Of a stretch of DNA of 64,000 nucleotides, positions 1,335 through 59,290 are shown one piece after another; the first letter of the stretch is position 1, and each line of letters starts with the position of its first letter. Source of the stretch: Eledone cirrhosa (Eukaryota); NCBI GenBank assembly GCA_964016885.1, contig OZ024742.1, positions 192,696,001-192,760,000 on the forward strand, given 5' to 3'. The notes beneath the pieces are model-generated. The model ran no database searches. It saw only the letters and a list, made by a program, of their open reading frames with translations, and was not told the DNA's origin. Both the position numbers and the translations under genes were made by a program.

Positions 1335-4300
1335 CGCGGGGACATAGAAATAATCGGACTGAATGCCCGATCGCGCAGTTAAACCACTGGGAGTGAAGAA
1401 CCCTTAGCCCTTGTCAGGGCATTCTTCTAGGAGAAGGCATCTCAGGAAACTGGGTTAACTCCGACATAAAACCTGCGGCTCAGTAGTTACCGATGATGTT
1501 GATCTTTTCTTCTTTTCGGGTTATAGCTACTGTCGCTCAGAGAGTGGGATTGGCTCAGTGCACAATCTTTCCTCACTTTAAAAATATTCGTCACGCATAG
1601 GCATTGCACGAGTGCATTAATAATTATTGATAGTGTACTATTATTATTATTATTATTATTGTTACTATTATTATTACTTTTTTTTTTTTTTTTTTTTTTG
1701 TCCAATTCAATGATGTTCCAGAACAATATAAAAGAGATAATTGGCAATTTAGGTTCTGGAACAAAAAAGATAATTGGCAATAAGGGCAGGGGCCCCAGGT
1801 TATCACAACCTGGGCCCGCTTGTCATCGTGTCATTGTAATAGAGCCAAACAAGGCATTTAGTCTTGGCTGCTGGAACGTACGGACGCTGCTTGACAAGGA
1901 TTCCTTGGAGCGTCCTGAACGAAGGACCGCCCTTGTTGCAAAAGAGCTTCGACGTTACGATCTTGACATCGTGGCTTTATCTGAGACGAGGTTAGCTGGA
2001 GATGGTCATCTTACAGAATTTTGTGGAGAATATACAATCTTCTGGAAAGGAAGAGATGAAGGAACCAGAAGAGAGGCTGGGGTAGGATTTGCTGTTAAGA
2101 CTGTACTTGTGAATAAATTAGAAGAATTCCCAGTAGGGATTAGTGAGCATCTTATGTCCATAAGAATTCCGCTGGACAAAGGAAGATATGCGACCCTGGT
2201 GAGTGTGTATGCTCCAACTATGAATTCTGTCGATGAAGAAAAAGTGTCCTTTTACCATGCCTTGAAAGGTGTTTTAAGAAATATCCCTCAGGCAGACAAA
2301 GTCATCGTGCTTGGTGACTTTAATGCTAGAGTGGGTAGGGATTTTAACACATGGAATGTAATCGGAAGGCATGGGGTGGGAAAGTGTAACAACAATGGTA
2401 TGCTCCTGCTGCAGATGTGTGAGGAGCTGGATCTGTGTGTTACCAACACCATTTTCCAACAAAAGAACAAATTCAAGACCACATGGATGCATCCTGCATC
2501 TAAGGAATGGCATCTTTTGGACTACGTCCTAGTCAGGATGCGTGACAGACAGGATGTGCAGTGTGTTCGTGCTCTTCGTGGAGCTGAGTGCTGGACGGAC
2601 CACCGCCTGGTACGCGCAAAAGTGAAACTAATCACTAAATGTAAAATCCGGGCTCCTGGTGTTGCCCTGCCCAAAAGATTGAATGCTGATCGTCTTAAGG
2701 ATAAAAATGTGAAGAGGACATTGGAAGAAGAGATGCAGGCTGCATATCTTGGTGAGGATTGGCCGACCCTTAAAAAGTCGGTTTATGATGTAGGCAGGCG
2801 TGTTCTGGGATTGGCGCAGAGAAAACATCAGGACTGGTTTAATGAGAATGATGTACATATAGAAGATTTGTTGGCTGATAAGAGGCGTGCTCTGTCACGC
2901 TACTTGACGGCAAAACCACAGGAGAGGAATACGTTGCATGAGGAACTCAAGGATGTAAAATCACGTGTTAGGCGGAGTCTTTCTCAGATGAAGGATCAGT
3001 GGTGGAGTGAGAAGGCTGGTGAGATACAAACTGCGTCAGATTCCAATAACACAAAGCTGTTGTACAGTCTCTTGCGTGAGGTTTATGGACCGTCTTCTTC
3101 TCTGGTGACAACGCTTCGCAGCAGGGACGGCAAAGAACTTCTTCGTGACTCACAAGGAATTCTACGAAGGTGGCGAGAGCACTTTGATGATCTTTTGAAT
3201 CAGCCGTCTGTCGTCAGTGAAGATTTCCTCAGTCTCATTCCAGAAAGTCCTGTGAAAGTAGCTCTCGCAGAACCTCCGACGCTGGTGGAGGTTGCAGTGG
3301 CTATTTCGAAGCTGAACAGTGGAAGATCTCCAGGTATGGATGGCATACATGCTGAGCTCCTACAATATGATGGTGAGAGACTCCTGCAACATCTTCACTC
3401 TTTGTTTGGCAGGATATGGGCTAATGAATCCGTACCTGAGGACTGGAGAGATGCAGTAATGGTGGTCTTGTACAAGGGAAAGGGTAACAGGAATGATTGT
3501 GGGAACTACAGAGGTATATCATTGCTTTCTGTCGTAGGGAAAGTTTTATGTAGGGTGCTTCTGAACCGTCTGCTGACACACATTGCAGATTGTATTCTTC
3601 CTGAAAGTCAATCTGGTTTTCGTGCTGGACGCGGCACTACTGATATGATCTTCTCAGCTAGACAGCTCCAGGAAAGTGCATTGAACAAGGCTTGGATCTG
3701 TATCAGGTTTTTGTCGATCTGACAAAAGCTTTCGATACTGTTAACAGAGATGCATTATGGAAGGTTCTCCAGAAACTTGGTTGCCTTGATAAGTTCCTTG
3801 CTTTAGTTAGGTCTTTCCATGACGTCATGAAGGCTTGGGTTAATGTCGGAGGTAACATGTCGGAGCCTATCTCAGTAAAAAATGGAGTGAAACAGGGGGA
3901 TATTCCAGCACGGACCCTGTTTGCCATATACTTTGCAATGGTTTTCTGTATTGCATTCAGGAATTGCGAGCATGGTGTTTACATCCGATATCGAACCTCA
4001 GGCAGCATATTTAACATCAGGCACTTTGCTGCAAAGACAAAAGTATTTACATCAATCATAAGAGACCTCTTGTATGCAGATGATTGCGATCTTGTAGCGC
4101 ACACAGAGAGTGATATGCAGCACATTTTGAATGCATTTTCTGACGCTTGCACTGCCCTAGGATTGACTGTCAGTCTCAAGAAAACCGCCGTCATGTACCA
4201 ACCTGCCCCTGGTAAGCAGTACACTGAACCAAATATATATGTGTATGGTAAACGACTTGGAGTGGTTGATCAGTTTGTCTACCTGCGAAGGAGTGTCAAT

Positions 4301-5424
4301 CGATACAGCAACCTTGACAGTGAAATCTCACTTAGGATTAGGAAAGCAAGTGATGCTTTCGGAAAGCTAGAAAGGCGACTCTGGGGTCGGCGAGACATAT
4401 GCAGGAGGACAACGGTAAAGGTGTACAGGGCATGTGTGCTCTCTTGTCTTCTTTATGCCTGCGAGACCTGGGTCACATATCGACACCACCTTAAGCAATT
4501 GGAGCGTTTCCATCAGATGTGTCTCAGACGGATCCATGGCGTTCCCTGGAGGGACCACATCAGTGATGTCGAGATTTTGGAAAGCTCTATGTGTGACAGT
4601 ATAGAAGCTCTTGTGCTTAAGCAACGACTCCGTTGGAGTGGTCACCTTGCCAGGATGAAGGATTCTAGAATACCAAAAAAACTCTTTTATGGAGAGTTGG
4701 TTAAAGGAAAACGACCGCCATATAAACCAATAAAGAGGTATAAGGATTCCTTGAAAGCCTCTCTGAAAGACGCTAACATCTCTGCTGATACATGGGAACA
4801 TTTTGCTGCTGATCGTATCAATGGAGAAAGACTGCATATGATGGAAAAGTTGCCTTTGAGGCATCTCGAATCGCATACGAGAAAGTAAAGCGGGATGTGA
4901 GGAAGGGCATTGCTGTTGCACTTCCAGACGGCGAGGGTCCTCCTATGGTGCTGACATGCAGCGTCTGTGCGAGACTCTGCCTAAGCAAAGCTGGATTCGA
5001 AAGTCATCTTCGCAGTCATAAAGTAAGACCAGTAGTTGACTACCAGGCTGCTGTTGGAGATGCTACTCATCATGCTTGCCAAACATGTGGTAGAGAACGT
5101 AAATCACAAGAGGTCTCAAGCGACATGCAAAAGTACACGAACTCCAACCACAGCCGACTATTCCCAGTGAATGTTTTGGTTGCCGACTCTGTGCAAGACA
5201 TTTTAGATCATTGGCTGGGCTAAAAAGCCACATTCGATCGCAGCGCTGTTAGTTGCTATCGTGTGTGTGTGTGTGTGTGTATAGATATGTTTATGTGTGT
5301 GCGTGTATATGTATATATTTCTTTTTATTTTTATTTTTATTTTCTTTTCTTTTTTATTTATTTATACATTTTTTTCTCCTCGTGCAATGGCCATACTCGA
5401 TAACGAGGGGGCAGCCATCATCAT
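1335..5424 (+). mobile_element. RTE-clade (BovB-like) LINE, near full length, with (ATGT)n tail
   Basis: 5' UTR ~1335-1700. APE endonuclease motifs (WNVRTL, LSETR, VYAPT, LGDFNARVG, LLDY, TDH), RT motifs (NYRGISLL, QSGFR, DLTKAFD, GVKQG, LYADD) and RLRWSGHLARM. The 3' end GGCCATACTCGATAACGAGGGGGCAGCCATCATC is followed by (ATGT)n. Confidence 0.95.
1710..5223 (+). pseudogene. RTE APE-RT polyprotein broken by frameshifts (ORF pieces 1659-3722, 3692-4888, 4897-5223), C-terminal C2H2-like finger
   Basis: Domain order is continuous across three frames. Frameshifts near 3670-3690 (LQE/K-C-I-E-Q) and near 4820-4890. CSVCARLCLSKAGFESHLRSH near the end. Confidence 0.9.
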
Positions 5425-6214: not shown

Positions 6215-10215
<4,001 letters not shown>

Positions 10216-11656: not shown

Positions 11657-12380
11657 AATTAAGTTAAAAATGTACATCTACATATGCATACTGAAATACT
11701 AGTATGCATATGAATACACACACGTATACATATGTAGATGTAACAAGTCTTTCACTGGTTACTTTACTGTGAGTAACCCAGCTATTTTGTATGTAAACAC
11801 ACAGACAAACCGGTTTTTAGAGTCATACTGGTTTTCGAGGAAACACCTTTCCTCTATTCTCCAGAAAGCCAGACAAGGAATATTGAACTAGTTTCGTTGT
11901 TGTTACAACTCATCAGCAATATTTACCTATCTACCGGCCTTTCTGGAGAATCGTAAAAGCACATATCGTTATATGCTTTTTCTATGAAAATTAGTAGTGG
12001 GCAGACTAATTTGCATAGAGTGTGAGTACGCACCGGTTCAGCGGAGACGATAAAAACAAATAACGAAACGAAATTAAATTTCGTTTCGTTTGTAACTCAC
12101 TTTTGTATGACTGACGCTTAAACAATTAAGTTAAAAATGTACATCTACATATGCATACTGAAATACTAGTATGCATATGAATACACACACGTATACATAT
12201 GTAGATGTAACAAGTCTTTCACTGGTTACTTTACTGTGAGTAACCCAGCTATTCTGTATGTAAACACACAGTATTTCAGTATGCATATGTAGATGTACAT
12301 TTTTAACTTAATTGTTTAAGCGTCAGTCATACAAAAGTGAGTTACAAACGAAACGAAATTTAATTTCGTTTCGTTATTTG

Positions 12381-12387
<7 letters not shown>
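11657..12387 (-). mobile_element. Non-coding hammerhead mini-element: 467-nt unit with ~147-nt direct repeat plus 118-nt inverted segment, (TA)n-flanked
   Basis: 11657-11803 repeats at 12124-12271 (one mismatch). 12270-12387 is the reverse complement of 12050-12167. HHR inside. Confidence 0.85.
11879..11923 (-). ncRNA. Minimal type I hammerhead ribozyme
   Basis: Minus strand: AATATTG CTGATGA GTTGT AACA ACAAC GAAA CTAG TT CAATATT. Stem I 7 bp, stem II 5 bp, palindromic ACTAGT stem III, GUU cleavage triplet. Confidence 0.9.
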
Positions 12388-28067: not shown

Positions 28068-29866
28068 AAATGTTATAGTTTGCTTGAAGCATTGTATATA
28101 ACGTTGAAAGCGATAGAAGGCTAAACAATGCAAAGTGGACTGTAAGATGAGGTAACGAGAAGTAAAGGTTACCTGTTAATCTTTCTTTTGTTTTGTTGTT
28201 GTTGTTCTTTTATTTGTCCAATATTTCGGTACCTAAAAGTTCCATCATCAGGGTTTAAGGTACCTTCAATGGATAAGGTTCCAATTTACTCTCTTTGGGA
28301 TATAATTTTTATTTTATTAAAACATTTAAAAAAATTATTTTTAAGCGCTTTTCCATGGTTACTTCGCTATGCACGTGAATGACGTCAATTGCCAATATAG
28401 TATTTCGCGAAATCAATTTTCTTTTTATATGAGATATTTAGTTTGCGTGCCTGTGTCTCTTTTTATATCAAGTAATGTTTGCTGAGTTCTAAAGTATTAT
28501 AGATTTACGGGTTGAGTCTACGTATGAGCAAGGCTTCCTTAATTCTTAAGTTGTCCACATTTCAGTGCTTCTTCACAGTTCTCATCTACCAAATTTCCCT
28601 CAGAATTTGAGGTTAAATTAGTAAACACATGATCAGCCCGCCACACAACAGGAATGAACATAAAACCACGAAGTGAATTTTTACCATTCACCTATATCTA
28701 TCCTTTGAACACTCGTATCCTTCCGCATTTACTTAAAGTAAATTTTGAATAATATAATAACGTTTTAATAATTTGAAGAATAATTAGATTTTGAAGCTAT
28801 CGGATATATTTCTATAATTCATTTCACAATTTGATTTATGTGTTCCTCCATTTATAATGATTGCATACAGATATTTACGAGCAGAAGGCAGTTTAAGCAT
28901 GGTTTATTGGAGTTTAAACCATCATGTGACATTTGTAACACCCTTATACGAAACGATAATCTTGATATATATGCACAGACACAAACTCACATACATGCAT
29001 ACATACACATAAACACACACAATCGTACATATACACACGCGCACACACAGACACACAGACAAAGTGCAATCTCATCTGATTCTTCTTTCCTGTTTAAGAC
29101 TATTTACACTTCATTCTGGTTTATTTGTTTGTCTGTTTGTTTTTAATTTTGTTTCAGAAAACTCGATTCACTACATTCTTATCGTAATTTGAATGCTTTT
29201 CAGAAAACAATGGTGACTACACATCCGTTACCACCCCCACTCTTCAATGCAATGTAGCAATATACAGCTTGAAACTGCTCAGATGATCTTGGATCAGTAA
29301 TACTACAGTACATAGAGTATGCATAATATCTGTAAATTATATTGAGAGTGATTATATGCAGCCCACCACGGATACATAATACTCATTGAGATCAAAGAGA
29401 GAGGGATAGGGGGTATAGATGGAATTCATTCTACCTCTTAGTCAGGAAATGTTTGGAAATTAAGAGATAAAATAATGGGAACTGTTCCCATAGCGCGGAA
29501 TAGCATGAACACAAGCCCATTTGTTTTGGCGAATTTCTTCCCAAATCAACAAATCAAACAAATCAAAGCATAATAGTTACCATTGACATTTACCGCTCAA
29601 GTTAAGTCCGATCTACATATACATAAATACATACATCCGCTTAGAAATGGCAGTCGTGAAAATGTGTACCCAATGCTATAGTAGAAGTTTATAATTTTTA
29701 TTTAAGACTAAATTTACTCTGAAGTTACATGACTTAATCTTCCGGGATGGACATATTTTTGCCATGAAACCTTAGGTAAAGCTTTTTGTTCCATGTATGA
29801 ATATAAATAAACATTATAATATAATATAATATAATATAATATATTTATATATATATATATATATAT

Positions 29867-44114: not shown

Positions 44115-46920
44115 AGTTGCATTTATCTTGCTTTATGTTCATACGAGTTATCACCAAGTCACAACCAGTGACCTCAAGAAAGAACATACATATTCACACG
44201 TGCATCTTTAGTGTTTAGACTTGTGTTGTACTTATATTGACATAATCTTCCTTAGTATATGGGCAGTTCGCATTAGTACTATCTTTTGTATTTCTCCTAT
44301 ACGCGGGTTTCCTGGGATTTGCGATAAGTAGTCATTAGACCCCTTAGGTATCATTCCCAGAGCGCATACAACCACTGGTATTGTTTTAATTCTCAATTTC
44401 CACATTTTTCCAATTTCTATCTCCAGGTCCTTATACTTGCTCAATTTTTCAAATGTTTTTATAGATACATTCTTGTCTATTGGAACAGACATATCAATTA
44501 GCAGGCATACCCTCCTTTGAAAGTCCTTCAATATTATATCAGGTCTATTTGCATCTATTTTTCGGTCTGTTTGGATGCTAAAGTTCCACAAGATTGAGAT
44601 GTGATCTTTTTCAAGTATGGGAGGTGGTTGATGCTCCCACCAATTCTTTTGATGGGGCAGGTCAAAATGCTTACACATTATCCAATGTATGTATTGTGCA
44701 GCTCTGTCATGCCTGTTTAGGTATTCGGTTGGAGCTATAGGACTGCACATTGAAATTATATGGTCAATGGTCTCTGGTTGTTTTTTGCATACACGGCATA
44801 ATGGGCTGCACCCATTTTTTATTATGTTGGCTTGGTAATTTTTTGTTGGCAGACACTGATCTTGTGCCGATATAATCAGTCCTTCAGTCTCCGATTTCAG
44901 TGCAGAGGATGCCAACCACTGATGGGTTAAAGTTTTGTCAACATCAGGATTGTTAGCTCGCTCTGGGTATTTTCCATACAGAGGCTTTTCTTGCCATTTC
45001 TTAGGCAGTTTCTGTAGCAGTTCTTTCTTTGCAGTTACTTTTACCTGCTTTGCTTTTTCTGTGTTTTCCATTTCAGCAGTAAATGGGACTTCTGAAATTT
45101 GTAGTCCATTACTGTATCTTTGTGCATCTTTTGTAATGGAATATGATATTTTGGTGCTTTCGTGTTTCAAAACGAGTTTCATCATCCAATCATGTGATTC
45201 CCTTAGATATGTGGATAATCCAATTGTTGCAGTTTTCAACGCAATCTCTAACTGGATTAACCCACGTCCTCCTTCTTTCCTAGGGAGATATATTCTATCT
45301 ATGTCTGCCTTAGGGTGATGCATTCTGTGCATGGTTAAGAATTTTCTGATTTTTGTATCGAGCCTACGGATCTCTGTGCTTGACCAGTTGATGACATTGT
45401 AACTGTAGGTTATTACTGGTATGGCAAGCGTGTTTATGGCATCGATCCTATTCCTTTCATTCAATTCCGTTCTTAAGATTGCTCTGACTCTGCGGTAACA
45501 TTCCTTCCTTATCATTTCCCTCATTGTCGAGTGCTTGATTCCCTCTCCTTCACAAACACCTAGATATTTGTAAGTTTTTTCTTGATCAAGCTCTCTTATC
45601 ACGTTCCCCCGATCAAGATTAATGTCTGAACTCTTCAGCAGCTTTCCTCTGGTGAACGTTGCTTTGGCGCATTTATCCAGTCCAAACTCCATTTTAATGT
45701 CATCACTGAACTGCTTCACAGTGGATAATAGCCCTTGCAATTGTTCATAATTTTTTGCAAATAGGTTCAGGTCATCCATGTAGAACAGGTGATTAATGGT
45801 TTTGTCATAGACTCTATATCCATGTTTTGTTTCATTGAGCATTTTACTTAATGGTATAAGTGCGATGCAGAATAAAAGCGGTGATAAAGAGTCACCCTGA
45901 AAAATTCCACAATTAATGTTAACTTCTCCAGCTTCCAGTGATTTTGTTTCACTATTCAAAAGGAGTGTCGTTCTCCATGTCCTCATACTGAATGACAAAA
46001 ACCTCATGACAACGGGGGATATTTTGAAAATCTCTAAACATTTTTCAATCCAACTGTGTGGCAAACTATCGAATGCTTTTTTATAATCTATCCAATCAAT
46101 CGATAGATTTTTGTGTCTATTATGACAATCTTCCAGTATCATTTTGTTAACCAGAAGCTGATCCTTACAGCCATATGAGCCTCGTTTACACCCTTTCTGC
46201 TCAATGGGAAATAGGTCATTTGTTATCAGGTGGTCATATGTGTATTCAGTTAGGACTGATGTTAAAATGTTATACATTGTGGTCAAGCAGGTTATCGGTC
46301 TGTAATTTTTGGGATTGTTTGTCTCATCATTCTTCGGTAGCAGGAATGTAATGCCGTTAACTAGCCATGATGGTATCTTTTCTGGCTCCTTAACTATTTC
46401 ATTGTAAAGTTGGGCTAACAGCTCATGAGACTCTGTGAAGGCATTTATCCAAAAGTTTTGTATTTTGTCTTTTCCTGGGGATTTCCATTTGCTGGTTTTT
46501 CTTAGAGCCAAGCGCAGCTGTTCAACTGTTATATTTTCCCATGTTTGTTCTTCAAGGTGAGCTGTTTCTTTCATTTGTCTGTCTATCCATGGGGCATGTA
46601 TGTTATGAACTTTTTCTTCGGCCCAGATCTTTTCCCAGAATTCTTGCACTTCCTCCTTGGGTGGTATTGATTTAGCAGTTATTGTTGACTTACCAATTTT
46701 TCTGTAGAAGTTTCTTTGGTTGTTTTTGAACATATTATTGTCCTTATAGAATCTAGATCGTTTTTCAAAGCGCCTTATACGAGCAGATTTGGCCGACACT
46801 TTTTGCTTGATTGTTTCTATCAGCATGTCTATGTCACATGTTGATCTTATACTGTACTTTTTTTTCAATTTTCTAAGTTTAGTTTGTTTAACATGTTCAC
46901 CTACTTTATAGTTTGTTAAA
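44115..46920 (-). mobile_element. R4/Dong-clade non-LTR retrotransposon, 5'-truncated, flanked by (TAA)n
   Basis: RT plus CCHC plus restriction-like endonuclease. (ATT)n tracts at 44085-44113 and 46921-46968. Confidence 0.92.
44232..46868 (-). CDS. R4/Dong RT-RLE ORF (878 aa uninterrupted; true start lost by truncation)
   Basis: NYRPITCL, EQKGC, DYKKAFDS, GIFQGDSLSP, YMDD, YKYLG, GGRGL, CRVC..ETIDHIISMC..RHD, RPDII..IDMSVP..K..KY. The frame stays open upstream to the ATT tract. Confidence 0.9.
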   Translation of the reverse strand: MKKKYSIRSTCDIDMLIETIKQKVSAKSARIRRFEKRSRFYKDNNMFKNNQRNFYRKIGKSTITAKSIPPKEEVQEFWEKIWAEEKVHNIHAPWIDRQMKETAHLEEQTWENITVEQLRLALRKTSKWKSPGKDKIQNFWINAFTESHELLAQLYNEIVKEPEKIPSWLVNGITFLLPKNDETNNPKNYRPITCLTTMYNILTSVLTEYTYDHLITNDLFPIEQKGCKRGSYGCKDQLLVNKMILEDCHNRHKNLSIDWIDYKKAFDSLPHSWIEKCLEIFKISPVVMRFLSFSMRTWRTTLLLNSETKSLEAGEVNINCGIFQGDSLSPLLFCIALIPLSKMLNETKHGYRVYDKTINHLFYMDDLNLFAKNYEQLQGLLSTVKQFSDDIKMEFGLDKCAKATFTRGKLLKSSDINLDRGNVIRELDQEKTYKYLGVCEGEGIKHSTMREMIRKECYRRVRAILRTELNERNRIDAINTLAIPVITYSYNVINWSSTEIRRLDTKIRKFLTMHRMHHPKADIDRIYLPRKEGGRGLIQLEIALKTATIGLSTYLRESHDWMMKLVLKHESTKISYSITKDAQRYSNGLQISEVPFTAEMENTEKAKQVKVTAKKELLQKLPKKWQEKPLYGKYPERANNPDVDKTLTHQWLASSALKSETEGLIISAQDQCLPTKNYQANIIKNGCSPLCRVCKKQPETIDHIISMCSPIAPTEYLNRHDRAAQYIHWIMCKHFDLPHQKNWWEHQPPPILEKDHISILWNFSIQTDRKIDANRPDIILKDFQRRVCLLIDMSVPIDKNVSIKTFEKLSKYKDLEIEIGKMWKLRIKTIPVVVCALGMIPKGSNDYLSQIPGNPRIGEIQKIVLMRTAHILRKIMSI

Positions 46921-46968
<48 letters not shown>

Positions 46969-47176
46969 GGCGACCTACGTAGTAAATCGTATCATCGTGA
47001 GCTTCGCAAAGTTTTGTTATTTCCGTTTGTTAAAAATTGTCATTTATGGAAAATTTTATTGTTAACTGTTTATAAGCGCACATACACTGTTTTCCGAAAA
47101 GGACACCCAAAAAGATTGGGGCCTTGTGCCCAAAATTTAAACTTTTATTATTATCAAAAAAATTTCTTTGAAAAAA

Positions 47177-49155
47177 ATGGCTAATTCACCTCTGAACGAA
47201 GCAGCTGAAAGCCTTCCTCACAAATTAACACCTCACACCGACACCACCATTGTAAATGTTACTACGTTTGCCAACACAAAAAAAAAATATAAGCACTAGC
47301 AATATTTTAAATTTGTCTCAGGCAGACATTCATTTCCCGCCATTACCAATGACTGCAGGTGTTAAAGCCTCCACCACAACCACCACCGCGACAACCGCCA
47401 CCACCACCACCACCACCGCGACAACAGAAACAAAAGAAGAAAAAATAAATTAACTCGTGATGTCGAAATGAAATCAAGCAAAATGGACTCTTCCCCTCCA
47501 AAGACGACTGACGTCACCACCACCACAACTGAAACTAAAATTAATATTAACGATAGCAACAACAACAACAAAGACATTATAACCCCCCCCCCTAATTTTC
47601 GCCAGAGTAGCAAAACAGTTCGAAGCATTTACGGTAACTCAGGAGGATTTAGAAAATGCCAAACAAATGGTAAAGAAAGATGGGTACAGGGTCAGCCTCA
47701 CCCCCACCTAATAAAATGGAGCATCGGCGCCTATGCACCATATCGTATAGAACAATAAATGTAAAATCGCGCCGAGTGGAACGGGCATCCGAGTCCCAAA
47801 TCCAAAAAGCTTTGGGACATGTGTGGGCAAGAAAAACCCACATCAGACGTGGGCAAAAGTATGGAACCGTGGACGTGTTCTTTGAAACACCAGAGGAGGC
47901 TGGATAACACTCCATGGCCCCATTAAGAAGTGACGACTTCACACTCGTCCCAAGCTATTGTGGCCAGAGACTCGTAAAGATCAGGGTGACCCACGTTCCA
48001 CCGGCCATCGAAATTCCCTGGCTAATAGCGGCTGTCCTCGCCGGCATCGAAGCCAACACGAAAATAATAGCAATAGCAAAAGAAAAGCAGGAGAACTGGT
48101 CCGGATCTGGGATGGCGCTCCTGACCCAAGCGGACCAAAAAAGCAATGCGGAGATCCCAGAGGTAATAGACCTCACTGACGGCAGCCACCTCACGGTAAT
48201 TGTCGAGGGCAGAAGACCTAGGTGTGTCGTTTGTGGTGAAGGAACCCACCTAAGGGCTTTCTGCCCTCAGGCTAAAAGGTTGAGGCCACCTATCCTACCC
48301 ACCCCAGTGACACAACCATCAACACCACCAGTAGCAGAGATGGCAGCAACAACTGTAGCAGCAACAACAGAAGCAACTATAACAGCAACAACCCCAGCAA
48401 CAGTAGCAAAACCAACACCACCACCACGACCAGCAAAACCAACACCACCACCACCCAACGCTTCAGAACTAGCACCAGCGCCTACACCATCCACCACGAC
48501 ACAACCAAAACTAACGGCTGTGGAGGATTTTCCACTCCCCGGCCTATCACAACTGGAGACAGATTGTGACGACGAGGAGTGGGAAACGATATCCGGAAAA
48601 AAAAGAAACCAAAAAAGAAAAAATTCTCTTCCTTCCCCCTCCAAAAACAAAATACAGAGGGAAACAAATAAATTAAGAAACAAAAAGTTAGGACAGATAT
48701 GCCACCATCCACACCAGCATCACCAACCCCATCAACCCAACCACCAACACCATCACCATCATTAACCCCAACACCACCATCACCTACACCACAAAAGTCA
48801 CCAAAATGCGAAACAGAAACAAACCCACAACAAACGCAAACAAAACAAAACAACCAAAACGATACACACTACACAGCATTAAATTTGAACAACAAGCAAT
48901 TATTACACTACATCCAACACAACACCAGCATCACAGAAAAAGACTACACAACAACCCCAAAATTCACACCACCTCCACACATACAAATAACTCGCATCAC
49001 ACAGAAAACGTACATGACACTAAAACAAAAATTCCCCAAAGACATCGGAGACTTCCGACAAGCACTCTCCAGGAGGATTTATAAGGACATCCTTCCCGAG
49101 GAGGCCACAAGCAGTGAAAAGGATGGAAAAACCGTCCTTCCCCTACTAGAAGTAA
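47177..49155 (+). pseudogene. Tx1 ORF1 (Gag-like, CCHC knuckle, P/T-rich), frameshifted at homopolymer runs
   Basis: ATG at 47177. Pieces 47468-47758, 47680-47907 and 47914-48765. CVVCGEGTHLRAFC matches CX2CX4HX4C. The 3' limit is approximate. Confidence 0.75.
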
Positions 49156-49194
49156 GGTATGTGGTCTTTCCCATCTTTTCCACTCCTTTTCAAC

Positions 49195-52100
49195 ATGACC
49201 TCACTCAGAATAGGCAGCATAAATGCGCGTGGCTTGGGGTCGTCATCGAAGCAGGGCCACCTGCTCAACGACCTCAGGTCACTAAACATAGATGTAGTGG
49301 CCATCAGCGAGACCAGAATCTCCGAAGCACAGGCTTTCGCACCGATCTTCGGCGGCTACGATGTGTACGCATCTCCCAGCCGTCCGGGATCGGGGGGTGG
49401 AGTTGCTGTGCTTTTCGGAGAGGTTTGGATCTTGCCACACGGGCCATCTTCCTGGACCCAGAAGGTAAGTTGGTGGTGTTGGACGTGACCAGCGGAGACG
49501 GGCAAGCTTTCAGGTTAGTGGCCGTCTATGCCCCGACAGGAGCAGGGCGGCCTGATTTCTTCCGGCGTCTGGAGACCTTTCTTGGAACGTCCCGCTCTTT
49601 ACTGTTAGTGGGCGACTGGAACGGGATCTTAGATGCACGCTGGGATTGTGTGGGATTAGTGGATAGGGAAGGAGGGTGCAAGAGTCTCACCAACCTGCTC
49701 AGACGTTTTGAACTGTCTGACAGGTACCGAATGGATTTCCCGAATGTACCAATGTGGACTTGGACAAATCGCATAGGGTCATCCAGATCATATCTAGATA
49801 GAGTATTTTGTAGGGAAATAGATAGGTCTAGCATAGGCTGTCCACAATTCAAGATAGTCAGCTACACGGACCACAAATTCGGGATCTGTGTGCTTGACTT
49901 AGATAGGCTTCATAGACGAGGACCCGGCTACTGGAAGCTAAACGCGTCCTTACCAGCGCGCAAGGCCTACCGAGACCGGATTAGCGAACTAGTTAAGCGG
50001 GCGTTGACGGGGGCCATCGTCAACAACAAGTGGTGGTTTGCTCTGAAAAGAGCAATTAGAATAGAGTCCATTAGGTTTAGTAAGACTTTAGCAATAGAGA
50101 AAAATAGAGCAGAGGGAGAATTAGTTAGAAAATTAGATGAGGCGCTTAGCAAAGGCATTGCGACCGACGTACTTGCGGCGAAATTGGCCCTTGACCAATT
50201 CTTCAATGCAAAGCACGAAGGCTGCGTTGTCAGAGCTAGGGTGCGTGCTCTCAGACGCGAGGGGACGAAAGCCGTTCAATGGGCCCGAGTGGCGGTGGCG
50301 CGTCGTGGCAACAAAGCCACGATCCGGTCTTTGGTGGACCACGACGGGCGCATGCTACTCAATCCCGGGCAAATGTGTGAAGCTTTTCAGCGACACTTCG
50401 CTCAACTGTTCGGGGGAAGTGGCGGGCCGGATCGAGGGATGGACTTTAGTGTCTACCTCGACGGACTGCCGCGGCTTTCGGCCACTGAGGCGGAGTGTTG
50501 CGAAAAGCCGATAACAACCGCTGAAGTACGGGATGCAATGACTAGTTGCACAAGGGGTAAATCGCCTGGTTTGGATGGTCTGCCCTATGAACTTTACGTA
50601 CAAATGCCAAACTTGTTCGGAGGCCTCTTGGCGGACGTCTACTGCAACTGGCAACAGAACGGGAGAATTCCCAGCTCTGTGAGCCGAGGAGCGGTGGCGC
50701 TGCTGAGAAAGGATCCGAACAAGGGGGATAACATAGATAATTTTAGGCCCATAACTCTGCTAAACACAGAGTTCAAGATTTTGGCCAAGGTGCTAGCAAA
50801 GAGGTTGGCGCTTGTCGTTGGTGGTCTGGTGGGAGTGGCACAGACATGCGCCATTCCCGACAGATCCATCCACGACAACCTCCACCTCATGCGATACATC
50901 GTAGAGAGGGTAGCTAGGGAACCTGGCACGGGTGGGTCTTTGATCAATTTAGATCAGTCGAAAGCCTTCGATAGGGACGACCATCGTTACCTAGCGGCAG
51001 TCCTGAGGGCGGCTGGCTTTGGGCCCGTCTTCAGAGGCTGGATCGCTGCCATGCACAGCAACATCTGCTCTGTAGTGAGAGTGAACGGTCACCTTTCGGA
51101 ACCGTTCAACATCATGCGCTCGGTCCGCCAAGGATGTCCCCTCTCGTCCCTATTGTACGTATTGACTCTCGAGCCATTACTGCACAAACTGGAGACGTTG
51201 AGGGGCGTCTCGCGCGAACTAGGATGCGGAAGATCCGTGTCAGCAAATGCCGACGATGTCACCGTAGTGGTGTCGAACGCCAAACACATCGAGGCGATCG
51301 GCACTACACTAAGAGAATACGAAGCGGTGACAGGAGCAATGATCAACCAGGAAAAGTCAGTGGGCCTGCAGATCGGTACCTGGAGAGGCAGGTCCATGCC
51401 GTCCAACAGCGTCGTCGGACGCTGGACAGACGGACCGGTTAAATTGCTAGGGGTCTGGTTCAGTCCGGACCTCCAGACGGACAAAAACTGGGACGAGGTG
51501 ACGAGCAGGGTGGCTTCTCTCACCCAGAAATGGGCCGCGAGGAAGCTATCCCTGAAAGGTCGAGCGGAGGTGGCTAACGCGTACATCGCGTCCGTCATCT
51601 GCTACCGCCTGACCGTCGTACCTTGTCCTAAGCCTCGCCTGACTGCGCTGGAGCGTTTGCTCTTTCGCTTTTTGTGGAAGGGACGCGCTCCGATGGTCAG
51701 GCGGTCCATCTGTTGTCAACACCCGCTACGTGGAGGGCTGGGCATGCCGTGGCTGATGATGCGCAGGCACGCGCTCAGGCTACGACATCTCCACCTCTTC
51801 CTCGACGGTGATCAGGTGTGGTCGCCGTTTGCTAGACACGTATTTCCCTAGCTCGTTTCCTTGACGGAGCTGCAGTCCTGGGTCAAGCGAAGACCGAGAG
51901 GGAGCGCCTGGAGACTGGAATGTCTTCAGGCGCTCACAGCCCTCGACCAATCGGGCAATGTGATCGGTGGAAACTCCACCTCGGCGTTCTATAGAGGATT
52001 AGTGGAGGGGAAGAGCGACGACGTACTTGGGGAAACTCTAGGCGTCGACGAAAATCAACTAGCCAATCTCTTCGGAAGAACTTTCGGGCCAGGGCCTATG

Positions 52101-52613
52101 GACAACTTCCAGAAATCTCTAGCCTGGCAGTGCTACCGAGGAGCCTTGCCAGTTCGGGATAAACTCTACAGGCATGGAGGTGCCGTCAGCCGGGCATGTC
52201 CGAGATGCGAACAGGGCGACGAAACCGTCCTGCACGCACTCGTCCAGTGTCCGAAAATTGCTGACTTGTGGGTTTATGTCGAACACCTGCTGTCGCGTTT
52301 AGGACGGACCCGGCTATCATCTGAGTCCATCGTGAGGATTGCCCCGCCCTCCTCCTTTAGCCGGGAAGCGCAGGCAGTTTTTATCTGTCTGGTGGCCATG
52401 GCGAAAGAGATAGTATGGTGGACACGTTTGAAAGGGTTGAAGACGAGCACTTACCTCTTCGGTGATGCTCTGATTGACTTTTTCAAATTTCATTTGAAAA
52501 GGAAAATCAGAGTAGAGAGGGAAGTGCTCTCTTCCCAGCATTTTGTTAAAAGATGGGTGAGAGAAGCAAGAATGGCCCGAGTGAATGGGCCTACTCTGAG
52601 TATATATCTGTAA
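49195..52613 (+). pseudogene. Tx1 ORF2 (APE-RT-CCHC), one frameshift (~49415) and one in-frame stop (51849-51851)
   Basis: MTSLRIGSINARGL, ISET, VYAP, VGDWN, YLDR, TDH, GPGYWKLN, KSPGLDGL, FRPITLLN, DQSKAFD, VRQGCPLS, ADD, GGLGMP, CPRC..ETVLHALVQC. Confidence 0.93.
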
Positions 52614-52920: not shown

Positions 52921-54233
52921 GGGATTTTGATAAGAATATTTAATCATACATTTGCTTATTATTGTTATTAAATATAATTAAAGTTCAGTTATATATTCGA
53001 GATTAAATATAATCAAATTATAAATATGAATATAAATACATATAGATGAAAAATTATTACTTATAATTTCGAAATAAAAATTTATTTAATAAAAAATATT
53101 TGTGCATATTTTTGCTTTAATATTTTTACAACTAATTCTCTTAAAATATAATCTTTAATAGGTAAAAAGAAAATTATAATGCAAACACAAACATCATAAA
53201 ATGCATAGGACAATGACTGGAAATTCCAAAGAACACTCTTTGTAAATCAATTGTTTTGCCGCCACTTTTGTTTATGATTCTGTTTATTTTTTTTATAAAT
53301 TTCAAATCAATACAAAATCTGCTTAAATCAAAACTTATAAATCTCCCCAAACGCATTAAAATTAATGGGCTTTTATACTCAAACACACGCACGCACACAC
53401 GCACACACGCACACACACACGCACACACGCACACACACTCAAACACACACACACACACATACATACTTGCACACGCATATACACTATATATTCATTTAAT
53501 TTGTTTTCATTCAATTTTTTTCGATTATATCTTAGACTATTATTTAAAAAGATTTTTCTATTTTGCATCTTATTTATTACTAATGTAAGTGGTTTGGTGT
53601 CACATTGAATGCGAAATTTAACAAACTACGAAATATTTTTCCTATCTAAAGCTCTGTAAACAATCTCCGAGGAACAAATTTGTGCAATCGTATATATATA
53701 TATATATATTGTTAGAATTATTGTTAGAGCAGACAAAACATCAAACGTATATACCATCGATGTGGACACTTACAATAACTTCATCCGTAAGGAATTGCAT
53801 AAAAAATACAGGAAAACTAATGAAGCCACACTTAAAAACATCAACAACTCGGCATGTGATATTGTTAAAAAACTTTGTATTGACGATAGAACGCAACCCT
53901 TAACACCAGCTATACCATCATTCAACCTGAAGGACCACAAGGTAAACTTCGATACTAACCCTAATATTCGACTTATATGCCCCTCTAAATCTGATATAGG
54001 TAAAATTAGCAAATAGACAGAATTATCCCCCAAGTTAAGGTTAAAGTAGAGATTATACTATGGGGTAACACTCATGAAGCAATAAGATGGTTTAATAACA
54101 TTACTGATAAGAAAAAATCAAAATTTATTCAGTTTGATATTGATGAATATTATTCCTCAATTTCACCTGAGACTCTACTCTTTCGTTCGCTCAGGATAAT
54201 TCCGACCTTACGGATGCTGAAATTAAAATTATT

Positions 54234-55565
54234 ATGGAAGCGAGAAAAACTATAGTTAAATTCGATGATAGCTACTGGGTTCGCAAAGATAGACCTTCTA
54301 ATTTTGATATCACTATGGGTTCTAATGATTCGGCGGAAGTAACAGATCTTGTGGGAATTTATATCACCCACAGATTACAAGGAAAATTCAAGGATCTCCA
54401 CGGTGGAATTTATCGTGACGATGCGCTCCTATTAGTTAAGCATATGAATAACCAGAATTTAGAAAGGATGCGTAAAAATATCAGAAAGCTTTTTAAGGAA
54501 CTAGGATTAAATATTACATTTGAATATAACCTCAAAGAGGTCAATTTCCTTGATGTTACTTTCAATCTCAATACAGATACGATTAAACCGTTCCATAAAC
54601 TAAATGAGAACCTTAAATATGTAAATACGAGTTCTAACCATCCACTCTCTATAATTAAATCCATCCCTAGAAATGTTTCTCTTAGAATCTCCCGCCTATC
54701 GTCCAACCAACAAACCTTCAAAGAACATGCCGAGTATTATGATGATGCACTTAGGAAAGCCGGTCACCTAGATAATATAGAGTATATAGTCAAAGATCAC
54801 CAAAACACCCAAAATAAATCACATAGGAGTAGAAATAGCACAGAATCACCACCATACATACACTACCGCAATAGACACAATAATAGTCGCACACCACCAA
54901 ACAGAAGGCGATGTAAGGAGTATATCTGGTACAACCCGGTCTATAACAACTCTATTAAAACCAATCTACCCTCAAAATTCTTTCGATTAGTTAGAAAACA
55001 CTTTCCAACATCACATAAATATAATAAAATCTTAAACCCTAACACTATTCGACTTTCATATTCAACCGCCCCTAATATTGAACAACATATAAAAAAGCTT
55101 AACGCAAAACGGTTGTATAAACGCCTTCCAACACATAACAATACACGTAAAACATTAGCTATAACATCACAAAACAACAAACAACATCCTGTCCTACATA
55201 AGCAACCTCATCAACCCATCCATGGCAATACAACAACGCAAAATTATAATTGCAACTGTGTCCAACCAGGAATGTGTCCGTTGAACAATCAGTGTCTTGA
55301 ACGCAACACCGTATACAAATGTACTATCGAATCGGATAGACAGAAGTGGTACTATGTGGGATCTACAGCCACCTCCTTCAAATCACGCCTTTATAGACAT
55401 CGTTATTCGATAAAACATGAAAACCAGCGTTATGTAACAACACTCGCAGACAAGGCTTGGCAGCTGCGTGAAAATAACCAACAATTTCACCTAAAATGGG
55501 ATATAATAGAGGCTGCCCCCCCCCCCCCCCCCCCCCATATATTCCCATGGACAGGAATTTTGTAA
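54234..55565 (+). pseudogene. PLE RT thumb-GIY-YIG ORF segment
   Basis: 443-aa ORF. Upstream part in 53762-54016. Frameshift at the poly-C run 55515-55536. Confidence 0.88.
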
Positions 55566-56171
55566 ATTATGTAATGTAGAATTATTTTGTATTATGAAAT
55601 CCAAAAACATTTTATTAAATAACAGAATAGAGCGATCATTATACTGTAACCATCGCTTAAAATCTACATTTTCATATTATAAATACTACCAGGATTGAAC
55701 GCCTGTCTCTATCCCCGTTTGATTGTGAAAATAGATATGAACATTCTTTATTAGTCTTAATTCTATCAACTCTTCTATTATTTACCTTTTAATACAAACT
55801 GCTATAGATAAAATGAGATTTCTGATTTCTTGATTCAATTCCCTAATGCATATACCAGCTGGCTACTAGCATTGATGTTATTTAGTAGCAATCGAAATCT
55901 CCCCCTTCCCCAATTGACACTTTATAATTAATACTACTGCACCAAATGACCAGCCCTGTCCACTGTCCAGTTGGTCAAGTAGAGATTAAAATTGGCACTC
56001 CCAAAATTCTTATTTAGATTTACTCATGATATTCTCATTAAAAACCCATTATATACTTGTTTACCAGTAAATAATTTTACCATCTGTCATATACTATCTC
56101 CTCTGTTCCTTCCTCTTTTACTAATATAAATACTTCAATTTTTCTGATTTTATCCAGTTTATCCAAAATCT

Positions 56172-56280
56172 CTGAAGAAGTGACAACTGATTATACATTT
56201 GCTATCGAATACTTGCTAACATTATATGATTACGCAAGCAGCGATACATAGGTATTCGGTCTGTTACAGAAACATATGTC
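56172..56280 (+). ncRNA. Hammerhead motif in PLE 3' pLTR
   Basis: CTGAAGA A GTGACA ...~75 nt... TGTTAC A GAAA CATATG TC. Palindromic stem III; stem I is weak. Confidence 0.6.
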
Positions 56281-56440
56281 AATACCTAATAAATTCCTTT
56301 TTTAACAAAAGCACTTTCATTTTATATTCATCCTTTCTACATTTCTCCGGAATATAATTTATACTCGTTGAGCAAACCTGCACGTACGCTGTTCATCTCT
56401 AACGTAACGATATATTATCACTACATTATTGATAACCTGC

Positions 56441-56479
<39 letters not shown>

Positions 56480-57890: not shown

Positions 57891-57939
57891 TTTTCTGGGA
57901 AAGAAAGAATGAAGTTCCGCTGTCGGCGATATATATATA

Positions 57940-58830
57940 CGTGTGTCAGAAAAGTTCCAGGACTGATGTCACAAAAATATTTTTCAAACCCAAACTTCAC
58001 ACTAAGAGTTTTCTCCTTCAAAATAATCCCCCTGGAGTCTAATGCACTTTTCCATTCTTTTCGGCCACGCTTGCATGCACTCCTGGAAGGATTCTTCCGG
58101 GATCCTCCGCAGTTCCGTCGTCATGGCCTTTTTGATGTCGTCCACGTCTTCAAAACGGGTCCCCTCCGGGTCGTACTCGAAGACTCATGACTCATCAACG
58201 GTGATGACTGTCCCTAGCAAGTCTGGTTCGGTTTCAAAATGCTCGTGGATGTCCTGGCACACTTGCATGCGTCGACCGTTCTGGTCATCGTTCAGCAGTT
58301 TTGGCACCATCTTCGCGCAGACTTTCCGCATGTCCAAATCTTCAGTGAGAATCTTCCAGACGTTGTCCCGATTCATGCCCAGCTCATTTGCCATCAGTCG
58401 AACAGTCAGTCGACGATCGCTACGCACCATCTGCCTGGCGCGCTCAACGTTGACCTCAGTCCTGGTTGTTGAGGGCCTTCCGCTCCTGGGGTCATCTTTC
58501 ACGTCCTCGCGTCCTTCTTTAAACCTCTTGCAACACTAAAAAACACGTGAGCGTGACAACGCCTCATCTCCATACACTTGCTGCAGCAATCGCAGTGCTT
58601 CTGATGGAGTTTTCAAGTATGTTCGTTGCTCTGTGCTCATTGCTTGACGACCTGAAACAGAGGACATGTATATAAAATTATGAAGAAAAAAGTTTGATCG
58701 CTGCAGAGAGCTAAGATTAGAGTTACATACTCCAGGGGGATTACTTTGAAGGAGAAAACTCTTAGTGTGAAGTTTGGGTTTGAAATAAATATTTTGTGAC
58801 ATCAGTCCTGGAACTTCTCTGACCCACCTC

Positions 58831-58831
<1 letters not shown>
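57940..58831 (-). mobile_element. Mariner element, internally deleted, ~100-bp terminal inverted repeats, in (TA)n
   Basis: [43 protein letters not shown] joined directly to GTRFEDV...GDYFEG. Ends CG(A/T)G..GTCAGA.AAGTTCCAGGACTG. Confidence 0.93.
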
Positions 58832-58903
<72 letters not shown>

Positions 58904-58994
58904 TATGTATACGTACATACATATATGTATACATACGTACAGTAGTATGTATATATATATACATACATGCACACATATATATATATGTACGTAT

Positions 58995-59290
58995 GGATTC
59001 ACCGAACATTTATTATAATGCTCGGTGTGTTTGTAAACAAACATCCCGAATTAAGCCGTACAGTGTCTAGCAACCACCGTTGCTCATTTGTTCAACACTG
59101 GCAAAGGAGCGCTGTACTAGTTTCAAGCTTATTAGCTATCGTCAGCAACGTATACCTTCCTGCCAGATGATTGAACGTCTGAAAGTATATACTTTCCTTA
59201 TGCATATTAACGGTTGAGCAGCCTAATTTGCATATCGAGTGTTGAATAAATGAGCAACGATGGTTGCTAGACACTGTACGGCTTAATTCA
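58995..59290 (-). mobile_element. Hammerhead mini-element with ~52-bp inverted segment
   Basis: 59049-59100 is the reverse complement of 59238-59290. HHR and octamer lie between the arms. Confidence 0.75.
59110..59150 (-). ncRNA. Minimal type I hammerhead ribozyme
   Basis: Minus strand: CGTTG CTGACGA T AGCT AATA AGCT T GAAA CTAG TA CAGCG. Palindromic ACTAGT stem III, GUA triplet. Confidence 0.85.

What the first reader, a model, noticed from the sequence alone, without database searches (positions are those of the whole stretch)
59049..59290. Same paired-octamer plus ACTAGT hammerhead architecture in an unrelated element
Seen: CTAATTTGCATA (59223-59234) is identical to 12006-12017. In both elements it faces an imperfect inverted partner ~10-12 nt away (TATGCATATTAA 59199; TATGAAAATTAG 11983). 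In both it lies 70-85 nt upstream of a minus-strand HHR with stem I ending TTG, an ACTAGT stem III and an extended basal helix (here TGGCA..GGA / TCC.TGCCA). The intervening sequence does not align. Known: ATGCAAAT is the POU/Oct site of snRNA-type enhancers. Inferred: a conserved internal promoter-ribozyme cassette defining a family of small self-processing RNAs, possibly controlled by POU factors.
Basis: partly seen in the sequence, partly recalled or inferred. Interest (0 to 1): 0.75.

Follow-up and report, generated by a model that had tools for sequence, protein, structure and literature searches.

The report
Retrozyme with host snRNA-type promoter
This is one truncated copy of a very abundant, protein-less jumping repeat that carries a hammerhead (self-cutting RNA) motif, and the conserved 'octamer' ahead of it sits with the same neighbours and spacing as in the host's own U3 and U13 small-RNA promoters, so the repeat likely carries its own promoter inside an RNA that Penelope-type retrotransposons likely copy.

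Summary
The motifs are real, but the two elements are not unrelated. Both are copies of diverged, colinear 430-490 bp tandem-unit families (A here, B at 12 kb). The genome holds 40,693 hammerhead cores of this type (control 43); 29,604 have ATGCAAAT 70-100 nt upstream. The insertions show Penelope footprints (inverted 5' piece, 3' end in (TA)n): non-LTR retrozymes, a known class. The octamer belongs to this clade only; 0 of 37 other hammerheads in an unbiased sample have it. It is not a distal enhancer. In the host's U6, U3 and U13 genes an octamer or one-base variant sits in the proximal element. Across ten retrozyme representatives the layout is octamer, YCA at +16, TATA at +40-43, CAG at +70-74. 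That matches U3/U13 (TATA +40-42), not U6 (+46-48), and T5-7 runs in the unit also argue against Pol III. The inverted partner octamer is not conserved. Transcription, cleavage, circles and POU binding are untested; no RNA run was listed. This scan reported the family and an snRNA/U6-type promoter on other DNA before; the U3/U13, Pol II-type spacing is the refinement added here. Newt satellite 2 is the precedent.

The parts
58894..59241 (-). Main segment of the family A retrozyme copy: 348 nt of a ~430-nt unit (unit positions 305-430 then 1-221); one ribozyme only, sub-monomer length
   Evidence: BLAST of a tandem unit on the window, 96%; units from arrays
59238..59289 (+). 52-nt inverted 5' piece (unit positions 16-67), the Penelope-type inverted 5'-truncated segment; it makes the long outer hairpin
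59226..59233 (-). Octamer ATGCAAAT, start of the predicted proximal promoter element (predicted -72)
59215..59217 (-). TCA at +16 from the octamer (predicted -56); same position as the TCA(G/A)T core of host U1/U2 (-56 to -58) and near U3's (+17)
59199..59210 (-). Imperfect inverted partner of the octamer; hairpin arm in A and B, decayed in C and D
59186..59191 (-). TATATA at +42 from the octamer (predicted -30)
59161..59161 (-). Predicted transcription start: the A of GGC|AG at +72, at the 5' edge of the extended ribozyme helix (inferred from spacing; not mapped)
59098..59165 (-). Type I hammerhead motif: extended stem I, core 59145-59115, U-U at the base of stem II, palindromic ACUAGU stem III (predicted to work as a dimer); predicted cut between 59115 and 59114
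58832..58900 (.). (TA)n tract into which the 3' end of the copy runs
11657..12271 (-). Family B copy (615 nt, 1.3 units of 467 nt): octamer 12016-12009, CCA 12000, CATATAA 11975, predicted start 11944, core 11916-11886; 3' end in (TA)n
12270..12387 (+). 118-nt inverted 5' piece of the family B copy

Best explanation
This is a 5'-inverted, truncated copy of a high-copy non-LTR retrozyme family whose tandem 430-490 bp units each hold a hammerhead motif behind an octamer-YCA-TATA block spaced like the host's U3 and U13 promoters, which likely acts as an internal Pol II snRNA-type promoter. Shown: copy number, tandem units, A-B homology, clade-wide conservation of the block, its match to host promoters, and Penelope-type insertion ends. 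Inferred: transcription would start about 72 nt after the octamer, at the 5' edge of the ribozyme helix. In a tandem array it would run through one whole unit, including the next promoter, to the next ribozyme. Dimer-dependent cleavage (palindromic stem III) would release a monomer that carries its own promoter and could be circularised. A Penelope-like RT/GIY-YIG enzyme would prime on (TA)n at a few U-rich sites and write tandem, 5'-inverted copies in which promoter again precedes ribozyme. The single-ribozyme window copy could not make a monomer itself.
For: Abundance: 40,693 cores vs 43 control; 29,604 with an exact octamer upstream, control 0; 2,487 more with another stem III vs 27 control, revealing families C and D. 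Layout in 10 representatives: YCA at +16 in 10 of 10, TATA-like at +40-43 in 10 of 10, CAG 28-31 nt after it in 10 of 10, while octamer-to-core varies 88-100. YCA at +16 occurs in 0 of 41 background octamers after removing 11 clade members from 52. Host genes, octamer-like word to TATA: U3 42, 42, 42, 40; U13 42; U6 46, 47, 48; starts at +71-75 vs +76-78. U1/U2 have TCA(G/A)T at -56 to -58 in 9 of 9 representatives. A host-promoter profile of +8 to +19 scores A, A2 and B above all 41 background sites. T runs of 5-7 lie between the predicted start and the next octamer in 16 of 18 tandem units. U3 is Pol II in yeast and humans; U3, U8 and U13 are independent genes (PMC7277114, passages); element-to-TATA distance sets the polymerase in plants (PMC9841428, passages). 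Footprints: inverted 5' piece in 16 of 26 A and 23 of 29 B loci; 3' end in (TA)n in 17 of 26 and 24 of 28, at two or three fixed unit positions that are homologous in A and B. A young 781-aa Penelope-like family has the same ends (13 of 14 long ORFs followed by (TA)n at about 639 or 747 nt). Circular folds beat shuffles, z -5.5 to -10.3.
Against: No RNA evidence of any kind: start site, cleavage and circles are untested. Host comparison is thin: one U13 gene, four U3 and three U6 promoters; U4, U5, U7, U11, U12, U6atac, 7SK and RNase P were not examined, and the polymerase of U3/U13 in this animal is assumed. U1/U2, the sure Pol II genes, have no octamer (0 of 20 distinct upstream regions), and U3's word is ATGTAAA(A/T), exact in none. 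In humans and insects PSE plus TATA means Pol III. The host profile does not separate C and D from background. The distal box of host promoters was not seen in the aligned units. A multi-copy A subfamily lacks 8 nt between TATA and the CAG (6 of the first 100 rows), so the CAG position is not essential. Families C and D were found by a search that required the octamer, and all families share one ancestor, so they are not independent trials. The Penelope-like family shares no sequence with the units beyond TA, so the actual partner is not identified; Pfam does not recognise its protein, and only 1 of 24 homologues hits RVT_1 and 1 GIY-YIG. Rfam has no hammerhead hit.
Confidence: 0.62

Rival explanations
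1. The block is a U6-type (Pol III, type 3) promoter: octamer-like element plus TATA, giving short RNAs that end at the oligo(T) runs.
For: All 9 U6 upstream variants with intact distal box and TATA have ATGC(A/T)AAT at -76 to -78, followed by (T/G)AG as in A-C. PSE plus TATA is the Pol III signature in humans and insects. Insertion 3' ends lie about 8-15 nt after T runs.
Against: Octamer-to-TATA is 46-48 in U6 but 40-43 in 10 of 10 family representatives. U6 has CCT at +15 where the families have YCA at +16, as U1/U2/U3 roughly do. A transcript ending at the T run would not contain the promoter, yet most copies carry it. In this genome U1/U2/U3 also have a TATA-like word at -30, so TATA does not mark Pol III here.
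Confidence: 0.15
2. The block is not a working promoter: it is inherited sequence kept for RNA folding or for recognition by the reverse transcriptase, and the units are transcribed by read-through.
For: A and B are homologous throughout. The octamer and the TATA word each lie in predicted hairpins. A review states that retrozymes seem to lack promoters and rely on read-through (PMC7761336, passage).
Against: The octamer stays exact while its pairing partner decays in C and D. Three elements keep fixed distances that match host promoters while the distance to the ribozyme varies.
Confidence: 0.17
3. One reading: a paired POU/Oct enhancer gives tissue-specific control of a ribozyme cassette shared by unrelated elements.
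For: The word is the exact POU consensus (recalled) and is invariant in A-D; family D carries extra upstream copies of it.
Against: Elements are related; the partner site is not conserved; the position is proximal, and housekeeping U6/U13 genes have the same word there; 0 of 37 other hammerheads carry it.
Confidence: 0.06

Closest known systems
Metazoan non-LTR retrozymes (coral, mussel, axolotl; Cervera and de la Pena 2020, PMC7229834, Results parts and passages read)
   Same: Non-coding tandem units of a few hundred bp, low GC, thousands of copies, type I hammerhead, strongly folded predicted circles. Axolotl HHR_Amex2 also has a U-U at the base of stem II and a two-pair stem III, and cleaves better as a dimer.
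   Different: Units are longer (430-490 vs about 170-400 nt). A conserved promoter-like block is present, whereas the 2020 review (PMC7761336, passage) says retrozymes seem to have none. No cephalopod is mentioned in either text (0 hits for the word). Expression and cleavage are not shown here.
Newt satellite 2 (Coats, Zhang and Epstein 1994; paper not held; known from its title and one sentence in PMC2220036)
   Same: Hammerhead tandem repeat with an internal snRNA-type promoter used by Pol II.
   Different: As recalled (not checked), its octamer is a distal element well upstream of a vertebrate PSE. Here the octamer is part of the proximal block 72 nt from the predicted start, as in this host's U3/U13/U6 genes. 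No homology was tested.
Penelope-like elements and their non-autonomous derivatives (Craig et al. 2021, PMC8557442, passages; Li, Clavereau and Pollet 2026, bioRxiv 10.64898/2026.07.22.740005, abstract and passages)
   Same: Partial tandems, inverted 5'-truncated copy, (TA)n targets, hammerheads; retrozymes proposed as non-autonomous PLE sequences.
   Different: No ORF, and no sequence homology to the one young PLE family examined; the preprint does not contain the words promoter or octamer.
Host snRNA-type promoters (U3, U13, U1, U2, U6 genes of this genome)
   Same: Octamer-like word plus NAG, YCA core near -56, TATA-like word at -30.
   Different: No distal TTACCTCCCTT box seen; spacing fits U3/U13, not U6; the promoter lies inside the processed RNA.

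Membership tests
Non-LTR retrozyme | Short non-coding tandem unit with one type I hammerhead per unit | tested here: met
   427-502 nt units, arrays up to 31 consecutive cores; descriptor hits with 0 in control
Non-LTR retrozyme | High copy number, dispersed, no LTR structure or ORF | tested here: met
   40,693 cores; the only long frame over the copy runs through TA repeats into a mariner remnant
Non-LTR retrozyme | Highly self-paired predicted circle | tested here: met
   Circular MFE z -5.5, -10.3, -7.8 against 40 shuffles each; TA palindromes contribute
Non-LTR retrozyme | Self-cleavage and abundant circular RNA in vivo | not testable with these tools
   Needs cleavage assays and RNA; no RNA run could be laid
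Non-autonomous Penelope-like element | Inverted 5'-truncated piece, partial tandems, (TA)n target | tested here: met
   16 of 26 and 23 of 29 inverted; 17 of 26 and 24 of 28 (TA)n ends; same in a young PLE-like family
Non-autonomous Penelope-like element | Homology to the pseudo-LTR of an autonomous partner | tested here: inconclusive
   None to the one family examined; other PLE families were not assembled
Pol II snRNA-type promoter (host U1/U2/U3/U13) | Proximal element and TATA-like word with Pol II-class spacing | tested here: met
   Octamer to TATA 40-43 vs U3/U13 40-42; YCA at predicted -56
Pol II snRNA-type promoter (host U1/U2/U3/U13) | Distal element (TTACCTCCCTT-like, -250 to -290) | tested here: inconclusive
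   Present in host U1, U2, U3, U6, U13; not seen in aligned A/B units by eye, no scored scan
Pol II snRNA-type promoter (host U1/U2/U3/U13) | SNAPc- and Pol II-dependent initiation at the predicted site | not testable with these tools
   Needs 5'-end mapping, ChIP, reporters
U6-type (type 3 Pol III) promoter | U6 spacing of proximal element to TATA | tested here: not met
   46-48 in three U6 promoters vs 40-43 in the families
Vertebrate-style octamer enhancer (DSE) | Octamer about 200-250 nt upstream of the start | tested here: not met
   0 of 20 U1/U2 upstream regions have it; host octamers are at -71 to -78

The most novel reading that the evidence does not exclude
A Penelope-parasitising ribozyme retroelement has captured a complete U3/U13-type Pol II proximal promoter and placed its start site at the 5' edge of its hammerhead, so every self-cut monomer circle carries the promoter for the next round; about 30,000 intact copies would be dispersed snRNA-type start sites, and their conserved spacing would read out a two-class (Pol II 41-43, Pol III 46-48) promoter code in this mollusc-like genome.
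Probability: 0.45. Interest if true: 0.68.

Novelty: new variant of a known kind. Interest (0 to 1): 0.5.

Why it matters
How animal retrozymes are transcribed is open: the 2020 review assumes read-through. A clade with tens of thousands of copies and an exact, testable promoter layout gives a direct test (a start at a named base, a named polymerase, a spacing swap) and would extend the newt satellite 2 case to a distant phylum. It also outlines this animal's snRNA promoter grammar. The element class itself is known, and the scan has reported this family repeatedly, which limits the score.

Tried and rejected
Rfam scans gave no hammerhead match (the miRNA hits are TA repeats). MITE reading of the 52-bp inverted repeat: rejected, most copies lack it and inversion lengths vary from 52 to over 500 nt. 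Octamer as distal enhancer: rejected. Octamer as a general hammerhead companion: rejected, 0 of 37 non-clade hits. Conserved paired octamer: rejected. Expression: no RNA holder listed; the four runs laid are contigs of unrecorded kind and were used only for variant positions. Pattern searches for distal box plus octamer found U6 genes and one U13 among 83 matches (20 of 30 fetched loci scanned, two more) and nothing new among 9 at shorter spacing. PDB searches with the PLE-like protein and its profile were uninformative; the protein atlas was not available. Local fold of the promoter-ribozyme stretch is no better than shuffles (z -0.29). Papers not held: PMC308520, PMC108972, PMC23255; PMC2114352 is held as abstract and references only. 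Not-in-print checks: searches listed no paper on a cephalopod retrozyme or its promoter; supplements were not read, and those of PMC7229834 and of the bioRxiv preprint may list further species.

Full report
Observation. The 12-mer, its partners and the two minus-strand hammerhead cores are at the stated places, and two copies of the 12-mer exceed chance. The genome is 3.0 Gb, TA-microsatellite rich; an octopus-like animal is my inference, not a tool result.

What the element is. The 59 kb sequence has 1,933 candidate matches and the 12 kb sequence 417; the best 40 scored are 89-100% and 99-100% identical. Arrays give units of 427-431 nt (A), 484-502 (A2) and 466-467 (B). The window copy covers 348 nt of a unit (59241-58894, minus), ends in (TA)n and has a 52-nt inverted 5' piece. 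The pattern CTGANGA-N8-30-GAAACTAGT occurs 40,693 times against 43 for its reversed control; 29,604 of these have ATGCAAAT 70-100 nt upstream. Among 25 distinct cores from the first 30 loci, 15 had the exact octamer; most of the rest were truncated or rearranged upstream. In 49 A-type copies with intact upstream sequence (of 67), 45 keep it exactly.

Related, not unrelated. With octamer, partner and core removed, A and B align with z 11.5; shuffles destroy TA patches, but the 90 nt upstream of the octamer also beat all 500 shuffles. A search for octamer plus a core with another stem III gave 2,487 matches against 27 (it includes mutated A/B copies) and revealed families C (ATGCAT stem III) and D (longer stem III). 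To remove that ascertainment I scanned 664 kb taken without regard to the motif: 45 structural hammerheads, 0 in the reversed control; 8 belong to A/B (7 with the octamer) and 0 of the other 37 have it. Some of those others lie downstream of Penelope-like frames. The octamer thus marks one clade.

Mobilisation. Of 30 A loci I dropped one duplicate and three without an exact central core; of 30 B loci one overlapping locus. An inverted 5' piece was found in 16 of 26 and 23 of 29, and 3' ends in (TA)n in 17 of 26 and 24 of 28; the automatic rule undercounts, scoring the window copy itself as negative. These loci are the best matches, so young. Ends cluster at homologous positions (A about 221 and 277; B about 229-234 and 303). 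These are the Penelope features described in PMC8557442 (passages). A young family with a 781-aa frame (150 scored matches at 96-100%) shows tandem and inverted ends and (TA)n tails. Its RT and GIY-YIG assignment rests on motifs read by eye and one weak Pfam hit each among 24 homologues. It shares no sequence with the units, so the partner is inferred from footprints only.

The promoter question. U1 and U2 genes have no octamer in 330 nt (0 of 20 distinct regions) but share a distal TTACCTCCCTT-like box, TCA(G/A)T at -56 to -58 and mostly a TATA-like word near -30. Earlier scan notes pointed to U6, which I tested: of 24 distinct U6 upstream regions, the 9 with distal box and TATA (three independent loci) all have ATGC(A/T)AAT at -76 to -78; one has it displaced by an insertion, and 14 look like promoter-less copies. 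A pattern search then found a U13 gene with distal box and ATGCAAATTAG, and 10 of 15 U3 matches have the distal box and ATGTAAA(A/T) at -71 to -74. Anchored on the octamer, TATA lies at +46-48 in U6, +40-42 in U3 and U13, and +40-43 in ten retrozyme representatives, which also have YCA at +16 and a CAG 28-31 nt after TATA, while the ribozyme core floats at +88-100. The CAG is the 5' edge of the extended stem I, so the predicted RNA begins with its ribozyme. T runs of 5-7 in 16 of 18 tandem units would stop Pol III before the next promoter and ribozyme. U3 is Pol II in yeast and humans, Pol III in plants (PMC7277114, passages), and spacing decides the polymerase in plants while TATA does in humans (PMC9841428, passages; insect layout in PMC1761439, passages). 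Pol II is therefore my reading, but it is inferred.

Against. No RNA data. Few host genes. U1/U2 lack the octamer. The host profile separates A, A2 and B but not C and D from 41 background sites. An A subfamily has lost 8 nt between TATA and CAG. The distal box was not seen in the units. The partner octamer has 1 mismatch in A and B but 2-4 in C and D, against 9 of 41 background sites with 2 or fewer, so 'paired' is not a conserved feature.

Known relatives and novelty. The class is the non-LTR retrozymes (PMC7229834, Results parts read), proposed to be non-autonomous Penelope sequences (bioRxiv 10.64898/2026.07.22.740005, abstract and passages). A review says they seem to lack promoters (PMC7761336, passage), but newt satellite 2 is cited as having an snRNA promoter used by Pol II (PMC2220036, passage; the primary paper was not held, and its octamer detail is recalled). 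My searches listed no description of this family. The scan already holds 878 notes fitting these words in this genome and several follow-ups with an snRNA or U6-type promoter reading; a word search for U3/U13 found none, and no look-alikes in other genomes were listed. Verdict: a new variant of a known kind; interest 0.5.

Noticed in passing
window 54171-56446 and loci L309-L350: Copy of a young, abundant Penelope-like family (intact relatives 781 aa, 96-100% identical) with (TA)n tails and tandem/inverted ends; no canonical hammerhead core found in its terminal repeat.
   Followed up: partly
window 6218-6245 (+), 7869-7896 (-), 17779, 28220-28251 (-), 30369: Other hammerhead families without an octamer; the one at 28220 follows a broken GIY-YIG-like frame. 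At least six such families appear in 664 kb.
   Followed up: partly
L223 (G000:C7:10329400-10332607): Independent U13 snoRNA gene with distal box, exact octamer and TATA-like word; with U1, U2, U3 and U6 it outlines an snRNA promoter grammar with distal TTACCTCCCTT.
   Followed up: partly
L144, L187, L190, L193, L194: Family D has two or three 33-nt repeats of the octamer block upstream of the proximal one.
   Followed up: no
L039: A 582-594 nt core-to-core interval joins the 5' part of a B unit to an A2 unit through (TA)n: nested insertion or chimera.
   Followed up: no
L158, L175-L186: Many promoter-less U6 copies with slightly truncated 5' ends; L158 and L179 sit beside ends of another hammerhead-bearing repeat, suggesting retrocopying.
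   Followed up: no
window 57929-58842: Mariner-like remnant with 114-nt terminal inverted repeats whose end abuts the (TA)n tract that holds the retrozyme copy.
   Followed up: no
window 1527-4888, 44232-46991, 48672-52613: Several LINE-type frames (endonuclease plus RT by eye; RVT_1 confirmed for 44232-46991).
   Followed up: no
L196, L197, L200, L201, L203, L205, L209, L212, L214, L224: A dispersed repeat with a distal-box-like word about 200 nt ahead of ATGCAAAT and ending in (TA)n; no Rfam match in the three scanned.
   Followed up: partly
L270:1032 (+): A further, degenerate member of the clade with the same octamer-TCA-TATA-GGCAG layout and a D-like ribozyme.
   Followed up: partly
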